Positions 34,041 through 38,795 of a stretch of 64,000 nt of DNA are shown in pieces. This stretch comes from Shigella phage ESh27. The translations under genes were made by a program, and so were the position numbers. Each line of letters starts with the position of its first letter. Position 1 is the stretch's first letter. Below the pieces are notes generated by a model. It did not search any database. It saw only the letters and a program-made list of their open reading frames with translations, and was not told the origin of the DNA. Where the stretch lies: sequence record ON528737. One strand, 5' to 3'.

Positions 34041-34700
34041 TTATTTAGCCCGCCCTAATATCCTTGCTGCTTGGTTGCATATTGCAGCCAAGCGTTCTTC
34101 ATTTAACACATCCGACCCCTTATACCAATACATAGAAACAGTTCCAGCATATATGTTATCCAAATTGAAGTAAGGACAACTATACATATATGCCAGTTCC
34201 GGAGTTTTTGATTTGGTAGGTAAGAAAGCAAAATCTGTTTTAGAAGTAAAGTGAAGTCCACTTAAATGGACCGAATACTCTGCTGTCGTTTTATCGACAG
34301 GAAATCCTCCCATAGATTTTTCAGTTACTGTGCTAGGTAACTTACCTTCATACGCAATAAGGTCGACGAAATAATTTAGATTTTTAGGTCTGAAAGAATA
34401 CACCGAACTAAAATCCGCCCTTGATGTGACGTGGACTATTTGTAGTTGTTCTAAAGCCGCAGATTCAAATCGTGTATTTCTTTCTTTTTGAATTACTTCT
34501 GTGTAAGTATCATATTTCGACCTCACGTAATAATCCATAAAAATATTCCCCTTGTACCATATTAGTGCCATTAGGAACAAAAGAACTACAACAGCAACTC
34601 TGGAAATAAGAATATTTCCAGAGGCGTTATCTTTGAAAATGCGGTCTAGCAACCCAAATAAAATATCACTAAGCGAAAATGATATTCTAGGTGCTGCCAT
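34041..34700 (-). CDS. t: holin T
   Basis: 219 aa; N-terminus MAAPRISFS, one TM then large periplasmic domain; C-terminus ARILGRAK; late promoter upstream. Confidence 0.9.
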   Translation of the reverse strand: MAAPRISFSLSDILFGLLDRIFKDNASGNILISRVAVVVLLFLMALIWYKGNIFMDYYVRSKYDTYTEVIQKERNTRFESAALEQLQIVHVTSRADFSSVYSFRPKNLNYFVDLIAYEGKLPSTVTEKSMGGFPVDKTTAEYSVHLSGLHFTSKTDFAFLPTKSKTPELAYMYSCPYFNLDNIYAGTVSMYWYKGSDVLNEERLAAICNQAARILGRAK

Positions 34701-34745: not shown

Positions 34746-35525
34746 TTAAATCCAGGAACCATAGATCGTGCCTGTTGCACCCCATGACGGTGAACTTCCG
34801 AATACTGCTCTGCCAGGAGCACCGCCACCAGATCTAGATAAGTGATTACCCCATCCATCTCCGCCCCGACCTCCAGCATCGCCGCCATTGCCTCCGCCGA
34901 ATTGGGAAGTGTAACCGGCGCCGCCCGGGGCGTCATAACTAGCATTACCACCCGGCCAATTAACACCACCGCCACCGAGACCAAATGGTCTGCCACCGCC
35001 ACCACCAGCTGTAGCATTTGGCGCCCAGCTATTCTGTAATGACACTGCACCACCACCGCCACCGCCTGATGCAATAACGCCATAGTTCCAAATACGAAGT
35101 CTTCCGCCGATATCATTTTGGATTACATCGCCGCCATTTGTGCCTGGGTTTCCGTTTACAGTACCGTTACCACCTCGTCCCCACATATGAACACCGCCGT
35201 GAATATTCAAAGTGACATATTCGTTAGGAGTATCACCATACATGAAGAATAAAGGAACGTCTTTAGAATATGATACCAAATTTCCGGTGATATTAAACAC
35301 TATAGGCGCACTACCTGCCTCAAAACATCTATCTCGGAACCATTGACCATTGAAGTTATGGTCTGCTCCAAGTGTGTGAATAATTTCTCTTGAGCGACCT
35401 GCAAATTGACTCATCCAGCAAGGAACACCCAATCTTAATTGACCAGCTGCTTGACTCATCCAGCGCTGACCCGTTTCATTTACGGCTGAACTTCCAATCC
35501 AGCCAGGAACTCCAACTACTGCCAT
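34746..35525 (-). CDS. 38: gp38 tail-fibre tip adhesin (T2-type, glycine-rich motifs)
   Basis: 259 aa; conserved N-terminus [13 protein letters not shown]; C-terminal half with poly-Gly runs separated by short variable segments. Confidence 0.85.
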
Positions 35526-35561
35526 AATTTATACTCCAAAGGGGGCATTTCCCCCTTGTTG

Positions 35562-38500
35562 TTAGAATTTAAAATATTTACTAATTTTGCGAGCAATTTT
35601 AGTAAAGAGAGGCGTTTTCAATTCTTTAATTTCTTCGCTCATTTCCTGAATGGCCTTAATTAAAAGCGCGTTCACTGCGGAGTTTGAAATTGTTAAAATT
35701 TCTTCTGGGTTATCCTGAGATCCGACACTAGAAGTGCTAACAGCTTCCGGTAATACTTCTTGCAAATCCTGTGCGATAATACCAATCTCATGGCCGATAA
35801 CTTCGCGGTCAGAAAGAGATTTAACTTTATCATAGGTTTTAACTTTGAGTTTATTTACCTTATCCACCGCATTCTCTTCGTAGTCTTCGACATTAATTTT
35901 CAGACGACGGTCAGAACGAATATAAACGTCGTTACAATATACAGCAGCACCAGCAGTAAAATCACCGTTAGATGCAAATGCATAATCACTCCCACCCACA
36001 TGCAATACAACATGAGGATTACCACCGCCAGCATGAACACCCATCGCCGCAAGGTGCTGTTCGCCCCAATGAGTAGCTTTCCAAATGTTATATGCTTGAT
36101 TTCGTGAGTCCTGACAGTCTACCAACAATCCAGCCGGACGGTCTCGCCAGTCTACCCATGCACCACCGGAAATATTACCACGGATAAGAGCGTATTCACT
36201 ATTATATGGAACACGCTCTCCCGCTAGAATCATTGCACCCTGGAAGTGATGACTAAATGAACCACCATGATTATTGTGAATATGTAAAATACCCTCATCT
36301 GTAGCCCAGATAACAGCCTTTTCTGCATCGCTATCATCTCTAAACCAGATATGTCGTGCACCAGTTGAGTTTTTGATGGTTATTCCGTTAGGTCCATGCA
36401 CGGTCAAAGCACCAGCAACATCAAACATCAAACTGTTATCTGTCCTGCGTTCAGCATAGAAGTGATAACCTTTTGAATCGCCGACTTCCAATACTGCCGC
36501 GCGACCAACTTCTGAATTTCCCCAATTGTTGATAGAGAATCGTTCAGAGCTATTATTCATCTGATTTAGGTATAATGTACCATCAGTGAATGTTTCGCCA
36601 AAGAAACGAGTTTTAATTGCACCTGTCGCTAAAGTACGTTCAGTGGAAAAATGAGCGCCTTGACTATCTTCTAACTGGATGATGTTATCACGACCATTAT
36701 TACTATCACCCCAATGGTTAAATTTAAAATAATCTCGTGATCCTAAACGTCCCGGGTCAAAAGTCATCACGCCTTTCATGTTAATATCACCGCTGACCAG
36801 AACGTTATCTGGGAAGTTAACAGTACCGTCTTGATTAAAACGAGACGCATGGCCTTGTGAACCATCTTCTTTCAGATGATGAATAACGAATGTACCTGAT
36901 TCAATTTCGGTACCTAAAGACCAAACGGATTTACCGTTTAAAAACTTCTGTTTAACAATAGGATAATATTTGCTTACAGCGTCATCATCGATTTCCTGGA
37001 AAATAGGAGCCGCTTGAACATATTGAATGTCATAACCGCCGGCACCCGCTCCATGACCAACAAATTTAATATAGCCATTCGCAGCAAACGTATTGTAACT
37101 TGATTGTAAATCTGGAATAGTAACTTTACCGGTATCTAAAGCCATACTAAACGGGCGAAGTGGACCGATATCACCATGTTTACCTTCACCATAAGCAGTT
37201 GGAATAATATGAAGACTGCCTTCTGAACGTCTAAAAATGGCTCCATAATCTGCGTTCCAAATACGAAGAGCATTCACTGCTCCAGATGAAATTTCACCTG
37301 TTGTGTGAACTCCTCTATCTCCAGCAGTAACACCAGATGATTCAAATGAACCATTAACGTTCATTTCTACTTCGCCAGTAGTAAGTCTTTGAATATAGCT
37401 CATCCAGCTAGTTGCATCAGAAATTTCCATAATGTTTTTACGGATACCTCCGCTTGGATCAACAAACGTATTACCCCAAACTTTAATATCCATATTATCA
37501 ACCGAGCTGTATCCTGTTGTGTTGCCTCTAAACATTAGTGTAGAAGAATTATTTCTACCATCTATATTAACAGAACCACCAATAACGTCAATATTACCAG
37601 GAGTAACTAACAAACCGCCATGAGTATTAATGTTTGTGGTACCCTTGCCGCGGAAATAATGATGATAGTTACCGCCTTGATAATATCCTAAAAGAGTTTG
37701 ACCATCGCCGTATGCGTTATTATCATGGTAAGTAACAACAGTGGCCAAAGCATAGTTTTCTGTCGGTGGCGTTGTCATAAGAAGCCCATCTGGAGAATAA
37801 CCCATAACCATTTTTCTAAGGCTTTGTGTTTCCGCAGGACCGTAAATGAAAGTTTTTGTTCCGTTGTTTACTGTATGGAAATATCCATCCTGATGCCACT
37901 TAAATCCGGTATCATTATCACCAAGAACAATTGAGGCCGTTCCTAATTCAGAATATCCTTTTGGACCACCTGGAAGACCTACAGCGATAGAATGACCGGC
38001 TTTCAATCCACCGGACCAGGTAAACGACCAAAGATAAGTGTCTAAGCCATCTCCGGAATACCAGGTTATTCCGTCATTAACATTAACTTCGTGGAAAATA
38101 CCTGCTCCTACAGCATTTCGCATAACACGGAGGTGGTTAATAGCCGTTTCGCTTTCTGCCAATGGAGTGTTATTTGATAATGAATAGATGTCATAATCGC
38201 CTGTCTTCTTCCCATTTGTAATAACTTTGTCGGTCAGAATTTGTGGAGACGAAATAGATTTCCATGCTGATACTTCAGGTGAAGTAAATAGTCCACTGCC
38301 CGAAAATGCATAGGTGCTTTCATCACCAGCGGCGTAGTCTTGAACCCTGATATTAAGTACTTGTGTAGTTAAACCATCATTAGCCGGGGCATAAATGATT
38401 CCACGTTCGCGACTATTGTTATCGAAAAAACGAACATGTGCTGTACCTGAACTTTTTGTAATAAGTTCACCGCCTTCAGTCATAATCTGCCCAGCGGCAA

Positions 38501-38795
38501 TAATATCACGAGTTACTCGAGCAATACCAGTTAAATTAAAATTACCTGTCTGAGTGAAGACACCATTTAAAGTATAATCGCCAGTTTGGTTATAATTACC
38601 TGTATGAATAACATTCCCGTCAATACTACCGCCTTTAGCAAAACCCAGATCAATAATATTTCCTTGGTCATCTTTAGTAAAAAGTACACGGTCTTTTAAG
38701 TTTATAGCCAATTCACCTTCGGCTAATACTGAAGCGGCAGGACGTGCTCCTGCAGTTTTGCTTCTTTTAAATTGTATTTGTTTTAAAGTAGCCAT
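35562..38795 (-). CDS. 37: gp37 long tail fibre distal subunit
   Basis: 1077 aa; N-terminus MATLKQIQFKRSK; C-terminal chaperone-like tail. Confidence 0.9.
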   Translation of the reverse strand: MATLKQIQFKRSKTAGARPAASVLAEGELAINLKDRVLFTKDDQGNIIDLGFAKGGSIDGNVIHTGNYNQTGDYTLNGVFTQTGNFNLTGIARVTRDIIAAGQIMTEGGELITKSSGTAHVRFFDNNSRERGIIYAPANDGLTTQVLNIRVQDYAAGDESTYAFSGSGLFTSPEVSAWKSISSPQILTDKVITNGKKTGDYDIYSLSNNTPLAESETAINHLRVMRNAVGAGIFHEVNVNDGITWYSGDGLDTYLWSFTWSGGLKAGHSIAVGLPGGPKGYSELGTASIVLGDNDTGFKWHQDGYFHTVNNGTKTFIYGPAETQSLRKMVMGYSPDGLLMTTPPTENYALATVVTYHDNNAYGDGQTLLGYYQGGNYHHYFRGKGTTNINTHGGLLVTPGNIDVIGGSVNIDGRNNSSTLMFRGNTTGYSSVDNMDIKVWGNTFVDPSGGIRKNIMEISDATSWMSYIQRLTTGEVEMNVNGSFESSGVTAGDRGVHTTGEISSGAVNALRIWNADYGAIFRRSEGSLHIIPTAYGEGKHGDIGPLRPFSMALDTGKVTIPDLQSSYNTFAANGYIKFVGHGAGAGGYDIQYVQAAPIFQEIDDDAVSKYYPIVKQKFLNGKSVWSLGTEIESGTFVIHHLKEDGSQGHASRFNQDGTVNFPDNVLVSGDINMKGVMTFDPGRLGSRDYFKFNHWGDSNNGRDNIIQLEDSQGAHFSTERTLATGAIKTRFFGETFTDGTLYLNQMNNSSERFSINNWGNSEVGRAAVLEVGDSKGYHFYAERRTDNSLMFDVAGALTVHGPNGITIKNSTGARHIWFRDDSDAEKAVIWATDEGILHIHNNHGGSFSHHFQGAMILAGERVPYNSEYALIRGNISGGAWVDWRDRPAGLLVDCQDSRNQAYNIWKATHWGEQHLAAMGVHAGGGNPHVVLHVGGSDYAFASNGDFTAGAAVYCNDVYIRSDRRLKINVEDYEENAVDKVNKLKVKTYDKVKSLSDREVIGHEIGIIAQDLQEVLPEAVSTSSVGSQDNPEEILTISNSAVNALLIKAIQEMSEEIKELKTPLFTKIARKISKYFKF

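What the first reader, a model, noticed from the sequence alone, without database searches (positions are those of the whole stretch)
35562..35910. gp37 carries a C-terminal intramolecular-chaperone-like tail
The last ~115 residues (SDRRLKINVEDYEENAV...IGHEIGIIAQDL...LLIKAIQEMSEEIKELK) resemble self-cleaving C-terminal chaperone domains of phage fibres and tailspikes, with SDRRLK the likely cleavage region. This predicts a processed fibre tip to which the gp38 adhesin binds.
Basis: partly seen in the sequence, partly recalled or inferred. Interest (0 to 1): 0.45.

Follow-up and report, generated by a model that had tools for sequence, protein, structure and literature searches.

The report
Self-cleaving chaperone tail of gp37
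The last 117 residues of this T-even-type phage's long-tail-fibre protein gp37 are a Peptidase S74 self-cleaving folding-chaperone domain, whose removal should expose the tip for the gp38 adhesin; this is real but already well described for T2, S16 and most T-even-like phages.

Summary
The minus-strand ORF 35562..38795 encodes a 1077-aa gp37, 97.8% nt identical to Mosigvirus phiC120. Residues S961-F1077 (window 35565..35915) match Pfam Peptidase_S74 (PF13884) at E=1.3e-14, 54.6 bits against a cut-off of 22.

A profile of diverse relatives hits solved members: S16 gp37 (6F45), the MyRF ICA domain (7DC3), the GA-1 neck-appendage chaperone (3GUD, whose chain starts at the aligned Ser) and an L-shaped tail-fibre chain (8HQZ). 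S961 and K966 align with the family's Ser-Lys catalytic dyad. Among 164 relatives with a residue at these columns, Ser is present in 161 and Lys in all 164.

The predicted cut is R960|S961 (DVYIR|SDRRLK), at the front of the motif. A T6-type gp38 adhesin with the three conserved N-terminal tryptophans lies 36 nt downstream.

Cleavage in this phage is inferred, not shown.

Minor extras:
- The finding's coordinates miss S961 and D962 by 5 nt.
- A 17-aa basic amphipathic tail (T6-type) follows the domain; its function is unknown.

The parts
35562..38795 (-). Gene 37, long tail fibre distal subunit (1077 aa plus stop codon)
   Evidence: ORF list. 97.8% nt identity over its full length to phiC120 'long tail fiber protein distal subunit'. 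Pfam Peptidase_S74 and Gp34_trimer hits.
35916..35930 (-). DVYIR (aa 956-960): predicted last strand of mature gp37, with R960 as the predicted new C-terminus
   Evidence: Coordinates follow the codon mapping. The strand is identical to the DVYIR strand that PMC7917993 predicts to end the mature fibre and form the gp38 docking tip. T2 has NVYIR. D/V/Y/I/R are each the majority residue in 102-113 of the aligned relatives.
35898..35915 (-). SDRRLK (aa 961-966): catalytic Ser961 and Lys966 of the S74 dyad, with the scissile bond R960|S961 just upstream
   Evidence: Coordinates. Ser in 161/164 and Lys in 164/164 of relatives with a residue at that column. Aligns with S16 S^SDRRIK and with residue 1 of the released GA-1 chaperone, 3gud_A SDERHK. 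The dyad corresponds to endoNF S911/K916, MyRF S587/K592 and T5 S1264/K1269 according to PMC8326128 and PMC4690869.
35565..35915 (-). Whole C-terminal intramolecular chaperone (Peptidase S74) domain, aa 961-1077: 117 aa, 13.2 kDa
   Evidence: Pfam core aa 961-1019. Profile and PDB alignments extend to about aa 1063. PHROG tail-fibre families are matched at their extreme C-terminal ends. Mass.
35574..35684 (-). Predicted long C-terminal alpha-helix (aa about 1038-1074), the likely trimeric coiled coil of the chaperone
   Evidence: AF2 model: helix at positions 111-147 of the 150-aa segment that starts at aa 928, pLDDT 62-69. A central trimeric coiled coil is a described feature of the T5 and MyRF chaperone domains.
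35565..35615 (-). 17-aa basic amphipathic tail TPLFTKIARKISKYFKF (aa 1061-1077), beyond the conserved S74 body
   Evidence: Not covered by most homologue alignments, which stop at query residue 105-108. pI 10.6 and helical hydrophobic moment 0.67. Present in 224 phage records including T6, RB14, RB32 and RB3. Replaced by other endings in otherwise about 90% identical domains.
35539..35557 (-). Intergenic RNA hairpin between the g37 stop and the g38 ribosome-binding site
   Evidence: Sequence. The 51-nt stretch around it has MFE -14.8 kcal/mol, z=-1.9. T2 has a hairpin of different sequence (UUCG loop) at the same place.
34746..35525 (-). Gene 38, tail-fibre adhesin (259 aa), predicted to cap the processed gp37 tip; its N-terminal attachment domain is aa 1-42 (35400..35525)
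   Evidence: Pfam GP38 2.3e-83 and Gp38_N 1.4e-20. PDB 9v85 (a gp38 receptor-binding domain fused to GFP) 1.6e-73 and 6f45_D (S16 gp38) 5.5e-48, with W9, W22 and W37 aligned to the S16 tryptophans. The first 51 residues differ from T6 gp38 at one position.

Best explanation
Residues 961-1077 of gp37 are a C-terminal intramolecular chaperone domain of the Peptidase S74 family.

Proposed mechanism (inferred by homology):
1. Three gp37 chains are brought into register by the trimeric chaperone domain, including its C-terminal coiled coil. This templates folding of the preceding beta-structured fibre tip.
2. Once the trimer is correctly folded, each chain cuts itself at R960|S961. Ser961 is activated by Lys966 (the Ser-Lys dyad).
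3. The 13.2-kDa chaperone leaves, taking Ser961 with it. The result is a 960-residue (104.0 kDa) mature gp37 ending in ...NDVYIR.
4. The newly exposed tip is the docking surface for one copy of the gp38 adhesin encoded 36 nt downstream. gp38 attaches through its N-terminal helical domain and three tryptophans (W9, W22, W37) and provides receptor recognition.

Shown here: domain membership, the catalytic residues, the C-terminal position, and the presence and type of gp38. Inferred: the chaperone activity, the cleavage itself and its exact position, and gp38 docking in this phage.
For: - Pfam PF13884 E=1.3e-14, above the gathering cut-off.
- Sequence and profile hits to solved members: S16 gp37 6F45, 8JOV, MyRF ICA 7DC3, GA-1 3GUD and 8HQZ.
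- S961 and K966 align with the catalytic dyad. Ser is present in 161/164 and Lys in 164/164 relatives.
- The released GA-1 chaperone chain begins exactly at the aligned Ser.
- The domain sits at the extreme C-terminus in 165 of 168 relatives, with a median of 4 residues after it, and at the C-terminal ends of 36 PHROG families, most of them tail-fibre families.
- It is 48% identical to the T2 gp37 C-terminus (E=2e-24) and 32% identical to that of S16.
- The best Foldseek hits of the AF2 model are the MyRF ICA domain, prob 0.99-1.00.
- gp38 has Gp38_N, GP38 and three aligned Trp.
- Literature: S16 autocleavage exposes the gp38 site, and DVYIR^SDGRLKI is predicted for fPS phages (PMC7917993). 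T2 and T6 gp37 are cleaved and then capped (PMC3157838, citing Drexler 1986). A general statement covers T-even-like phages (PMC9569957). The Ser-Lys mechanism is described in PMC4690869 and PMC8326128.
Against: - There is no direct evidence of cleavage for this phage.
- The AF2 monomer model is of low confidence (mean pLDDT 65.6), and its fold match is weak in E-value (0.02) and TM-score (about 0.5).
- The stalk arginine that senses correct folding in endoNF (R897) and T5 (R1250), 14 residues upstream of the Ser, has no positional equivalent here. The only Arg in the last 33 pre-cleavage residues is R960 at P1, so the trigger geometry may differ, as it does in MyRF.
- The 17-aa basic tail is not part of the described family architecture.
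Confidence: 0.9

Rival explanations
1. The S74-like domain is present but is removed by a separate phage or host protease rather than by autoproteolysis, or it is retained in the virion.
For: As cited, the 1986 T2 work describes proteolytic processing only; nothing read here says it identified the protease. No positional equivalent of the endoNF/T5 sensor Arg is present upstream (sequence; mechanism).
Against: Both dyad residues are intact and under strong conservation. Autocleavage has been shown for homologues by Ser-to-Ala or Lys-to-Ala mutants in T5 and MyRF and is stated for S16. MyRF shows that the dyad can work without a stalk Arg.
Confidence: 0.05
2. The segment is only a trimerising coiled-coil tag or a permanent structural cap, with no chaperone or maturation role; its similarity to S74 is a vestige.
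For: The AF2 model is dominated by a long C-terminal helix.
Against: Similarity spans the whole domain, not just the helix: Pfam matches aa 961-1019, upstream of the helix. The catalytic residues are conserved. A permanent cap would occupy the tip where gp38, encoded next door, has to dock.
Confidence: 0.03
3. Chance resemblance or mis-called ORF; for example, the real coding sequence is the antisense ORF 35760..36107 (+).
For: A 115-aa TTG-start ORF exists on the opposite strand.
Against: E-values for the minus-strand product range from 1e-12 to 1e-47 across four independent libraries. The gene is annotated in this frame in hundreds of phage genomes. Nothing supports the antisense ORF.
Confidence: 0.01

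Closest known systems
Salmonella phage S16 gp37 C-terminal intramolecular chaperone, gp37(3)-gp38 tip complex (PDB 6F45; Dunne et al. 2018, as described in PMC7917993 and PMC6851490)
   Same: Same architecture: a gp37 beta-helical tip, then S-D-R-R-[LI]-K, an S74 domain, and a gp38 adhesin gene downstream. The domains are 32% identical, with a profile hit of E=4e-22. gp38 is homologous at 5.5e-48, with the three Trp aligned.
   Different: The strand before the cut is DVYIR|S here and DLNVS|S in S16. The tip domain upstream is only weakly similar. S16 lacks the 17-aa basic tail. The domain is 117 aa here and 113 aa in S16.
Phage T2 and T6 gp37 C-terminal processing (Drexler, Riede & Henning 1986, J Mol Biol 191:267, cited in PMC3157838)
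   Same: The T2 gp37 C-terminus is 48% identical (E=2e-24) and has NVYIR|SDIRLK. The 17-aa tail here differs from T6's at two positions, and the first 51 residues of gp38 differ at one. Both phages have a gp38 adhesin downstream.
   Different: T2 gp37 is 1341 aa and ends ...KELESKLM without the basic tail. The body of the window's domain is closer to that of Krischvirus G37-3 (95%) than to the T6-type domains compared here (72-75% in FL04 and similar phages; the T6 record itself was aligned only over the tail), so the 3' end of g37 is mosaic.
[quoted passage not shown]
   Same: Near-identical predicted cleavage site DVYIR^SDGRLKI, the same tail (P0007/P0008 type...TPFFTKIARKISKYFKF), and the same published inference of IMC release followed by gp38 docking.
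   Different: About 66% identity over the 150-aa C-terminal segment compared, and a different fibre tip upstream.
C-terminal intramolecular chaperone domains of K1F endosialidase (endoNF), GA-1/phi29 neck appendage and T5 pb1 L-shaped fibre (MEROPS/Pfam Peptidase S74)
   Same: Same Pfam family, the same Ser plus Lys(+5) dyad, the same C-terminal position after a trimeric beta-structured fibre, and release after folding.
   Different: Different passenger proteins (tailspike, appendage, siphovirus fibre). In those, the cleaved tip itself binds the receptor, whereas here it is capped by a separate adhesin. The stalk Arg sensor at -14 is not positionally conserved here.
Eukaryotic MyRF ICA domain (PDB 7DC3)
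   Same: Homologous domain (profile E=8e-14). It is the best structural match of the model. It uses a Ser-Lys dyad and cleaves only as a trimer.
   Different: MyRF is a membrane-bound transcription factor whose domain is internal, not C-terminal. Cleavage releases a transcription factor rather than maturing a fibre.
Phage T4 gp37 with gp38 and gp57A as separate chaperones
   Same: Same gene order (34-35-36-37-38-t) and the same fibre position.
   Different: According to PMC3157838 and PMC6851490, the T4 gp37 C-terminus forms the receptor-binding tip itself, and T4 gp38 is an unrelated assembly chaperone that is absent from the virion.

Membership tests
Peptidase S74 / C-terminal intramolecular chaperone domain (Pfam PF13884) | Profile match above the curated threshold | tested here: met
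   54.6 bits against a cut-off of 22, E=1.3e-14, aa 961-1019, covering profile positions 1-57 of 58.
Peptidase S74 / C-terminal intramolecular chaperone domain (Pfam PF13884) | Catalytic serine at the start of the domain (endoNF S911, T5 S1264, MyRF S587) | tested here: met
   S961 aligns with the Ser of S16 SDRRIK and with residue 1 of GA-1 3gud_A. Ser is present in 161/164 relatives.
Peptidase S74 / C-terminal intramolecular chaperone domain (Pfam PF13884) | Catalytic lysine five residues after the serine (endoNF K916, T5 K1269, MyRF K592) | tested here: met
   K966 is at +5. Lys is present in 164/164 relatives, and the column is invariant in alignment A2.
Peptidase S74 / C-terminal intramolecular chaperone domain (Pfam PF13884) | Located at the C-terminus of a trimeric phage fibre or spike protein | tested here: met
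   It forms the last 117 aa of gp37. It is C-terminal in 165/168 relatives and matches the C-terminal ends of 36 PHROG families, most of them tail-fibre families.
Peptidase S74 / C-terminal intramolecular chaperone domain (Pfam PF13884) | Fold: mixed alpha/beta domain followed by a trimeric alpha-helical coiled coil | tested here: inconclusive
   The AF2 monomer model has mean pLDDT 65.6, with a helix, two strands and a long terminal helix. The top two Foldseek PDB hits are MyRF ICA chains (prob 0.99-1.00), but with E=0.02-0.03 and TM 0.46-0.51. No trimer model could be made.
Peptidase S74 / C-terminal intramolecular chaperone domain (Pfam PF13884) | Autoproteolytic release after trimer folding | not testable with these tools
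   This needs protein chemistry. It has been shown for homologues.
Peptidase S74 / C-terminal intramolecular chaperone domain (Pfam PF13884) | Stalk arginine from a neighbouring chain acting as folding sensor (endoNF R897, T5 R1250; not used in MyRF) | not testable with these tools
   There is no Arg at -14. The only Arg in aa 928-960 is R960 at P1, which is Arg in 106 of the aligned relatives. A trimer structure is needed.
T2/T6/S16-type long tail fibre tip (processed gp37 capped by gp38 adhesin) | gp38 adhesin of the polyglycine-rich family encoded directly downstream of g37 | tested here: met
   Pfam GP38 2.3e-83. PDB 9v85 1.6e-73 and 6f45_D 5.5e-48. The gene lies at 34746..35525, 36 nt after the g37 stop.
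T2/T6/S16-type long tail fibre tip (processed gp37 capped by gp38 adhesin) | gp38 N-terminal attachment domain with three conserved tryptophans | tested here: met
   Gp38_N 1.4e-20. W9, W22 and W37 align with the S16 gp38 Trp residues, whose role is described in PMC6851490.
T2/T6/S16-type long tail fibre tip (processed gp37 capped by gp38 adhesin) | gp38 physically present on the virion fibre tip and a C-terminally truncated gp37 in virions | not testable with these tools
   This requires virion proteomics or structure determination.

The most novel reading that the evidence does not exclude
The 17-residue basic amphipathic tail (TPLFTKIARKISKYFKF) appended to the chaperone in T6-type gp37 proteins is not a passive end of the coiled coil. 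It may be a separate functional module, for example a membrane- or partner-binding helix that localises or times fibre-tip maturation, or that hands the tip over to gp38. [quoted passage not shown] The IMC body 95% identical to the window's occurs with a different ending in Krischvirus G37-3, where gp38 is replaced by three unknown ~100-aa paralogues.
Probability: 0.12. Interest if true: 0.35.

Novelty: already known. Interest (0 to 1): 0.08.

Why it matters
For this window it mainly fixes the annotation:
- gp37 should be annotated with a Peptidase S74 intramolecular chaperone domain at aa 961-1077.
- The predicted mature end is R960.
- The receptor-binding protein is gp38, not gp37.

This matters in practice for host-range engineering and for recombinant fibre production, because constructs must keep the chaperone domain for folding and should be expected to lose it. 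It does not change understanding of the system. The mechanism has been known biochemically since 1986 for T2 and structurally since 2018 for S16, and recent papers state that it holds for most T-even-like phages.

Tried and rejected
- AF2 was run on the last 150 aa with a shallow alignment of 22 close relatives. It gave only pLDDT 65.6. Foldseek still ranked the MyRF ICA domain first, but with weak statistics, so I treat the fold evidence as inconclusive.
- The single-sequence PDB search did not reach the endosialidase, GA-1 or T5-type entries. A profile of 35 diverse representatives reached GA-1 (3gud) and an L-shaped fibre chain (8hqz), but endoNF (3GW6) did not appear at E<=0.01.
- My first script for picking diverse sequences failed on a gap filter and was fixed. 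Two literature calls failed on terms that were too short.
- I considered the antisense ORF 35760..36107 (+) and rejected it, as nothing supports it.
- The sigma-70 promoter scan around the 3' end of g37 found nothing above the shuffled expectation.
- I looked for a positional equivalent of the endoNF/T5 sensor Arg at -14 and found none (sequence). This cannot be resolved without a trimer model.
- I checked whether the tail co-varies with gp38. The T6 and FL04 proteins share both the tail and the gp38 N-terminus with the window, while G37-3 shares the IMC body but neither of the other two. This is compatible with simple linkage, since the tail lies 36 nt from g38, so it is not evidence of function.
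Full report
**What is there.** The finding lies at the 3' end of a minus-strand ORF, 35562..38795, that encodes a 1077-aa protein. Over its full length the gene is 97.8% identical in DNA to the 'long tail fiber protein distal subunit' of Escherichia phage phiC120 (Mosigvirus, Tevenvirinae). It matches 657 phage records in all. The local gene order on the minus strand is g34-g35-g36-g37-g38-t. Gene 38 lies at 34746..35525 (Pfam GP38 2.3e-83 and Gp38_N 1.4e-20), and the T holin lies at 34041..34700.

SDRRLK is aa 961-966 (window 35898..35915). S961 to F1077 is 117 residues (35565..35915), and the stop codon is at 35562..35564. The finding's upper coordinate, 35910, clips S961 and D962 by 5 nt. 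This is a trivial error.

**Is it more than chance?** Yes, by several independent measures:
- Pfam Peptidase_S74 (PF13884, 'Chaperone of endosialidase') matches aa 961-1019 with 54.6 bits against a cut-off of 22, E=1.3e-14, covering 57 of 58 profile positions.
- The last 212 aa match the deposited sequence of S16 gp37 in PDB 6F45 at E=1.2e-12. They match 8JOV and the MyRF ICA domain 7DC3 more weakly.
- An exhaustive search of 1.84 billion cluster representatives found 6005 relatives at E<=1e-3.
- tblastn found the domain in 1503 of 50,697 phage records, from T-even-like and T5-like phages to streptococcal PblB proteins and cyanophage fibres.
- The 117-aa segment matches 36 PHROG families, most of them tail-fibre families, always at the very end of the family profile.

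**Membership tests.** I extracted the matching segments of 168 relatives and aligned them.
- The column of S961 is Ser in 161 of the 164 sequences that have a residue there.
- D962 is Asp in 163.
- K966 is Lys in all 164.
- The domain ends a median of 4 residues before the protein's C-terminus and is C-terminal in 165 of 168.

A profile of 35 mutually diverse members (A2) hit five solved-structure sequences: S16 gp37 (4e-22), 8JOV (8e-15), MyRF ICA (8e-14), the GA-1 neck-appendage chaperone 3GUD (6e-8) and an L-shaped tail-fibre chain 8HQZ (8e-6). The 3GUD chain is the released chaperone, and it begins with SDERHK exactly at the column of S961. That places the cut immediately N-terminal to the serine.

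Published structures and mutants give the same picture.
- In T5 pb1 the bond Thr1263-Ser1264 is cut. Ser1264 is activated by Lys1269, and S1264A blocks cleavage (PMC4690869).
- In MyRF, S587A and K592A block cleavage, and these residues correspond to endoNF S911 and K916 (PMC8326128).
- In S16 the cut is DLNVS^SDRRIKK (PMC7917993).

By alignment, the cut here is DVYIR|SDRRLK, between R960 and S961. It would give a 104.0-kDa mature gp37 (aa 1-960) and a 13.2-kDa released fragment.

The structural test was only partly informative. AF2 on the last 150 aa with a shallow alignment gave mean pLDDT 65.6. The two best Foldseek hits in the PDB were nevertheless MyRF ICA chains, with prob 0.99-1.00, E=0.02-0.03 and TM about 0.5.

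One feature of the phage mechanism could not be checked. The stalk Arg of a neighbouring chain (endoNF R897, T5 R1250, 14 residues before the Ser) has no positional equivalent here. The only Arg in aa 928-960 is R960 at P1, which is Arg in 106 of the aligned relatives.

**The gp38 half of the interpretation.** The downstream protein is a gp38 adhesin of the polyglycine-rich family. It matches PDB 9v85, a gp38 receptor-binding domain fused to GFP, at 1.6e-73, and S16 gp38 (6f45_D) at 5.5e-48. In the alignment with S16 gp38, W9, W22 and W37 of the N-terminal domain line up with the S16 tryptophans. The structure's authors describe these as inserting into three symmetry-related hydrophobic pockets at the base of gp37 (PMC6851490).

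The first 51 residues of the window's gp38 differ from T6 gp38 at one position. The strand just before the cut, DVYIR, is the same one that PMC7917993 predicts to form the flat docking tip in the fPS phages. T2 has NVYIR|SDIRLK, and its C-terminal domain is 48% identical to this one.

**How it most likely works.**
1. The three C-terminal domains trimerise through a coiled coil plus an alpha/beta body and template folding of the interdigitated beta-structured tip.
2. In the folded trimer, the Ser961-Lys966 dyad cuts each chain before Ser961.
3. The chaperone dissociates.
4. One gp38 monomer docks on the exposed tip and provides receptor specificity.

Steps 1 to 4 are inferred by homology. The domain identity, the catalytic residues, the position of the domain and the gp38 partner were tested here. 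I put this explanation at about 0.9. The rivals are cleavage by another protease or retention of the domain, a mere trimerisation tag, and chance or a wrong frame; they are listed with what would refute each.

**Comparison with what is known, and novelty.** This is established biology.
- The S16 work showed autocleavage of a 113-residue IMC that exposes the gp38 site (as summarised in PMC7917993).
[quoted passage not shown] - A virtually identical site (DVYIR^SDGRLKI) has already been interpreted in print in exactly this way.

The finding is therefore correct, and useful as annotation, but already known. Interest is low.

**Things seen in passing.**
1. After the conserved S74 body, the protein ends in a 17-aa basic amphipathic tail, TPLFTKIARKISKYFKF (pI 10.6, helical hydrophobic moment 0.67). 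It occurs in 224 phage records, including T6, RB14, RB32 and RB3. It is replaced by unrelated endings (…RERLAAIEAKLG, …KAELAELKATK, …ESLVK) in otherwise similar domains; the first of these accompanies a segment 90% identical to the window's. The 3' end of g37 is mosaic. The IMC body is 95% identical to that of Krischvirus G37-3, whereas the tail and the gp38 N-terminus are T6-type. The tail's function is unknown. Linkage to the adjacent g38 is enough to explain the co-inheritance.
2. G37-3 and two other phages have no gp38 after this IMC. They carry instead three tandem paralogous ~100-aa ORFs with no Pfam or PHROG hit and with spaced N-terminal tryptophans.
3. A GC-rich hairpin lies between the g37 stop and the g38 Shine-Dalgarno sequence (35539..35557). 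T2 has a hairpin of different sequence, with a UUCG loop, at the same position.
4. Pfam Gp34_trimer matches gp37 at aa 453-550.
5. The 1998 T6 record reads SDSRLN where every other relative has the catalytic Lys. This is probably a sequencing error.

Noticed in passing
window 35565..35615 (-), gp37 aa 1061-1077: A 17-aa basic amphipathic tail, TPLFTKIARKISKYFKF (pI 10.6, hydrophobic moment 0.67), follows the S74 coiled coil. It is present in 224 phage records (T6, RB14, RB32, RB3, fPS-2 type). Otherwise similar domains carry unrelated endings; one of them, …RERLAAIEAKLG, follows a segment 90% identical to the window's. A distant relative (P0098) ends ...ETPWYKKIYSKLFN. Function unknown.
   Followed up: partly
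window 35565..35930 (-) compared with L003, L004 and L005: The 3' end of g37 is mosaic. The IMC body (aa 956-1063) is 95% identical to Krischvirus G37-3, but only 72-75% identical to the T6-type domains of FL04, UGKSEcP2, fFiEco06 and PM105. The last ~17 aa and the gp38 N-terminus are T6/FL04-type. The apparent junction is near ...QEMSEE|IKELK.
   Followed up: partly
L003 1591..2497 (Escherichia phage vB_EcoM_G37-3, MK327941.1): Downstream of a gp37 with the same DVYIR|SDRRLK tip and IMC there is no gp38. Instead there are three tandem paralogous ~100-aa ORFs with no Pfam or PHROG hit, found in only 3 of 50,697 phage records. Their N-termini carry spaced Trp residues reminiscent of the gp38 attachment 'prongs', and two have YFKF close to the C-terminus. 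They may be alternative mini-adhesins.
   Followed up: partly
window 35539..35557 (-), g37-g38 intergenic region: A stable RNA hairpin (AAGGGGG-AAAUG-CCCCCUU) lies between the g37 stop and the g38 Shine-Dalgarno sequence. The 51-nt stretch around it folds at -14.8 kcal/mol, z=-1.9. T2 has a hairpin of different sequence with a UUCG loop at the same position, so the position is conserved but the sequence is not.
   Followed up: partly
window about 37146..37439 (-), gp37 aa 453-550: Pfam Gp34_trimer (PF21446; the C-terminal trimerisation domain of the proximal fibre subunit) matches inside gp37 at E=9.9e-8. This indicates a domain shared between the proximal and distal half-fibres.
   Followed up: no
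L005 (AF052605.1, phage T6 genes 37 and 38, 1998 record): The old T6 record reads SDSRLNINKQQLEYG where FL04 reads SDSRLKINKEELEYG, so the invariant catalytic Lys appears as Asn. This is probably a sequencing error, but if it were real it would predict an uncleavable T6 gp37 (Lys in 164/164 relatives).
   Followed up: no
window 35916..35918 (-), gp37 R960: The residue at P1 of the predicted cut is Arg here, in T2, and in 106 of the aligned relatives. The corresponding residue is Ser in S16, Thr in T5 and Pro in MyRF. No Arg sits at the -14 'sensor' position of endoNF and T5, so R960 might take over that role.
   Followed up: no
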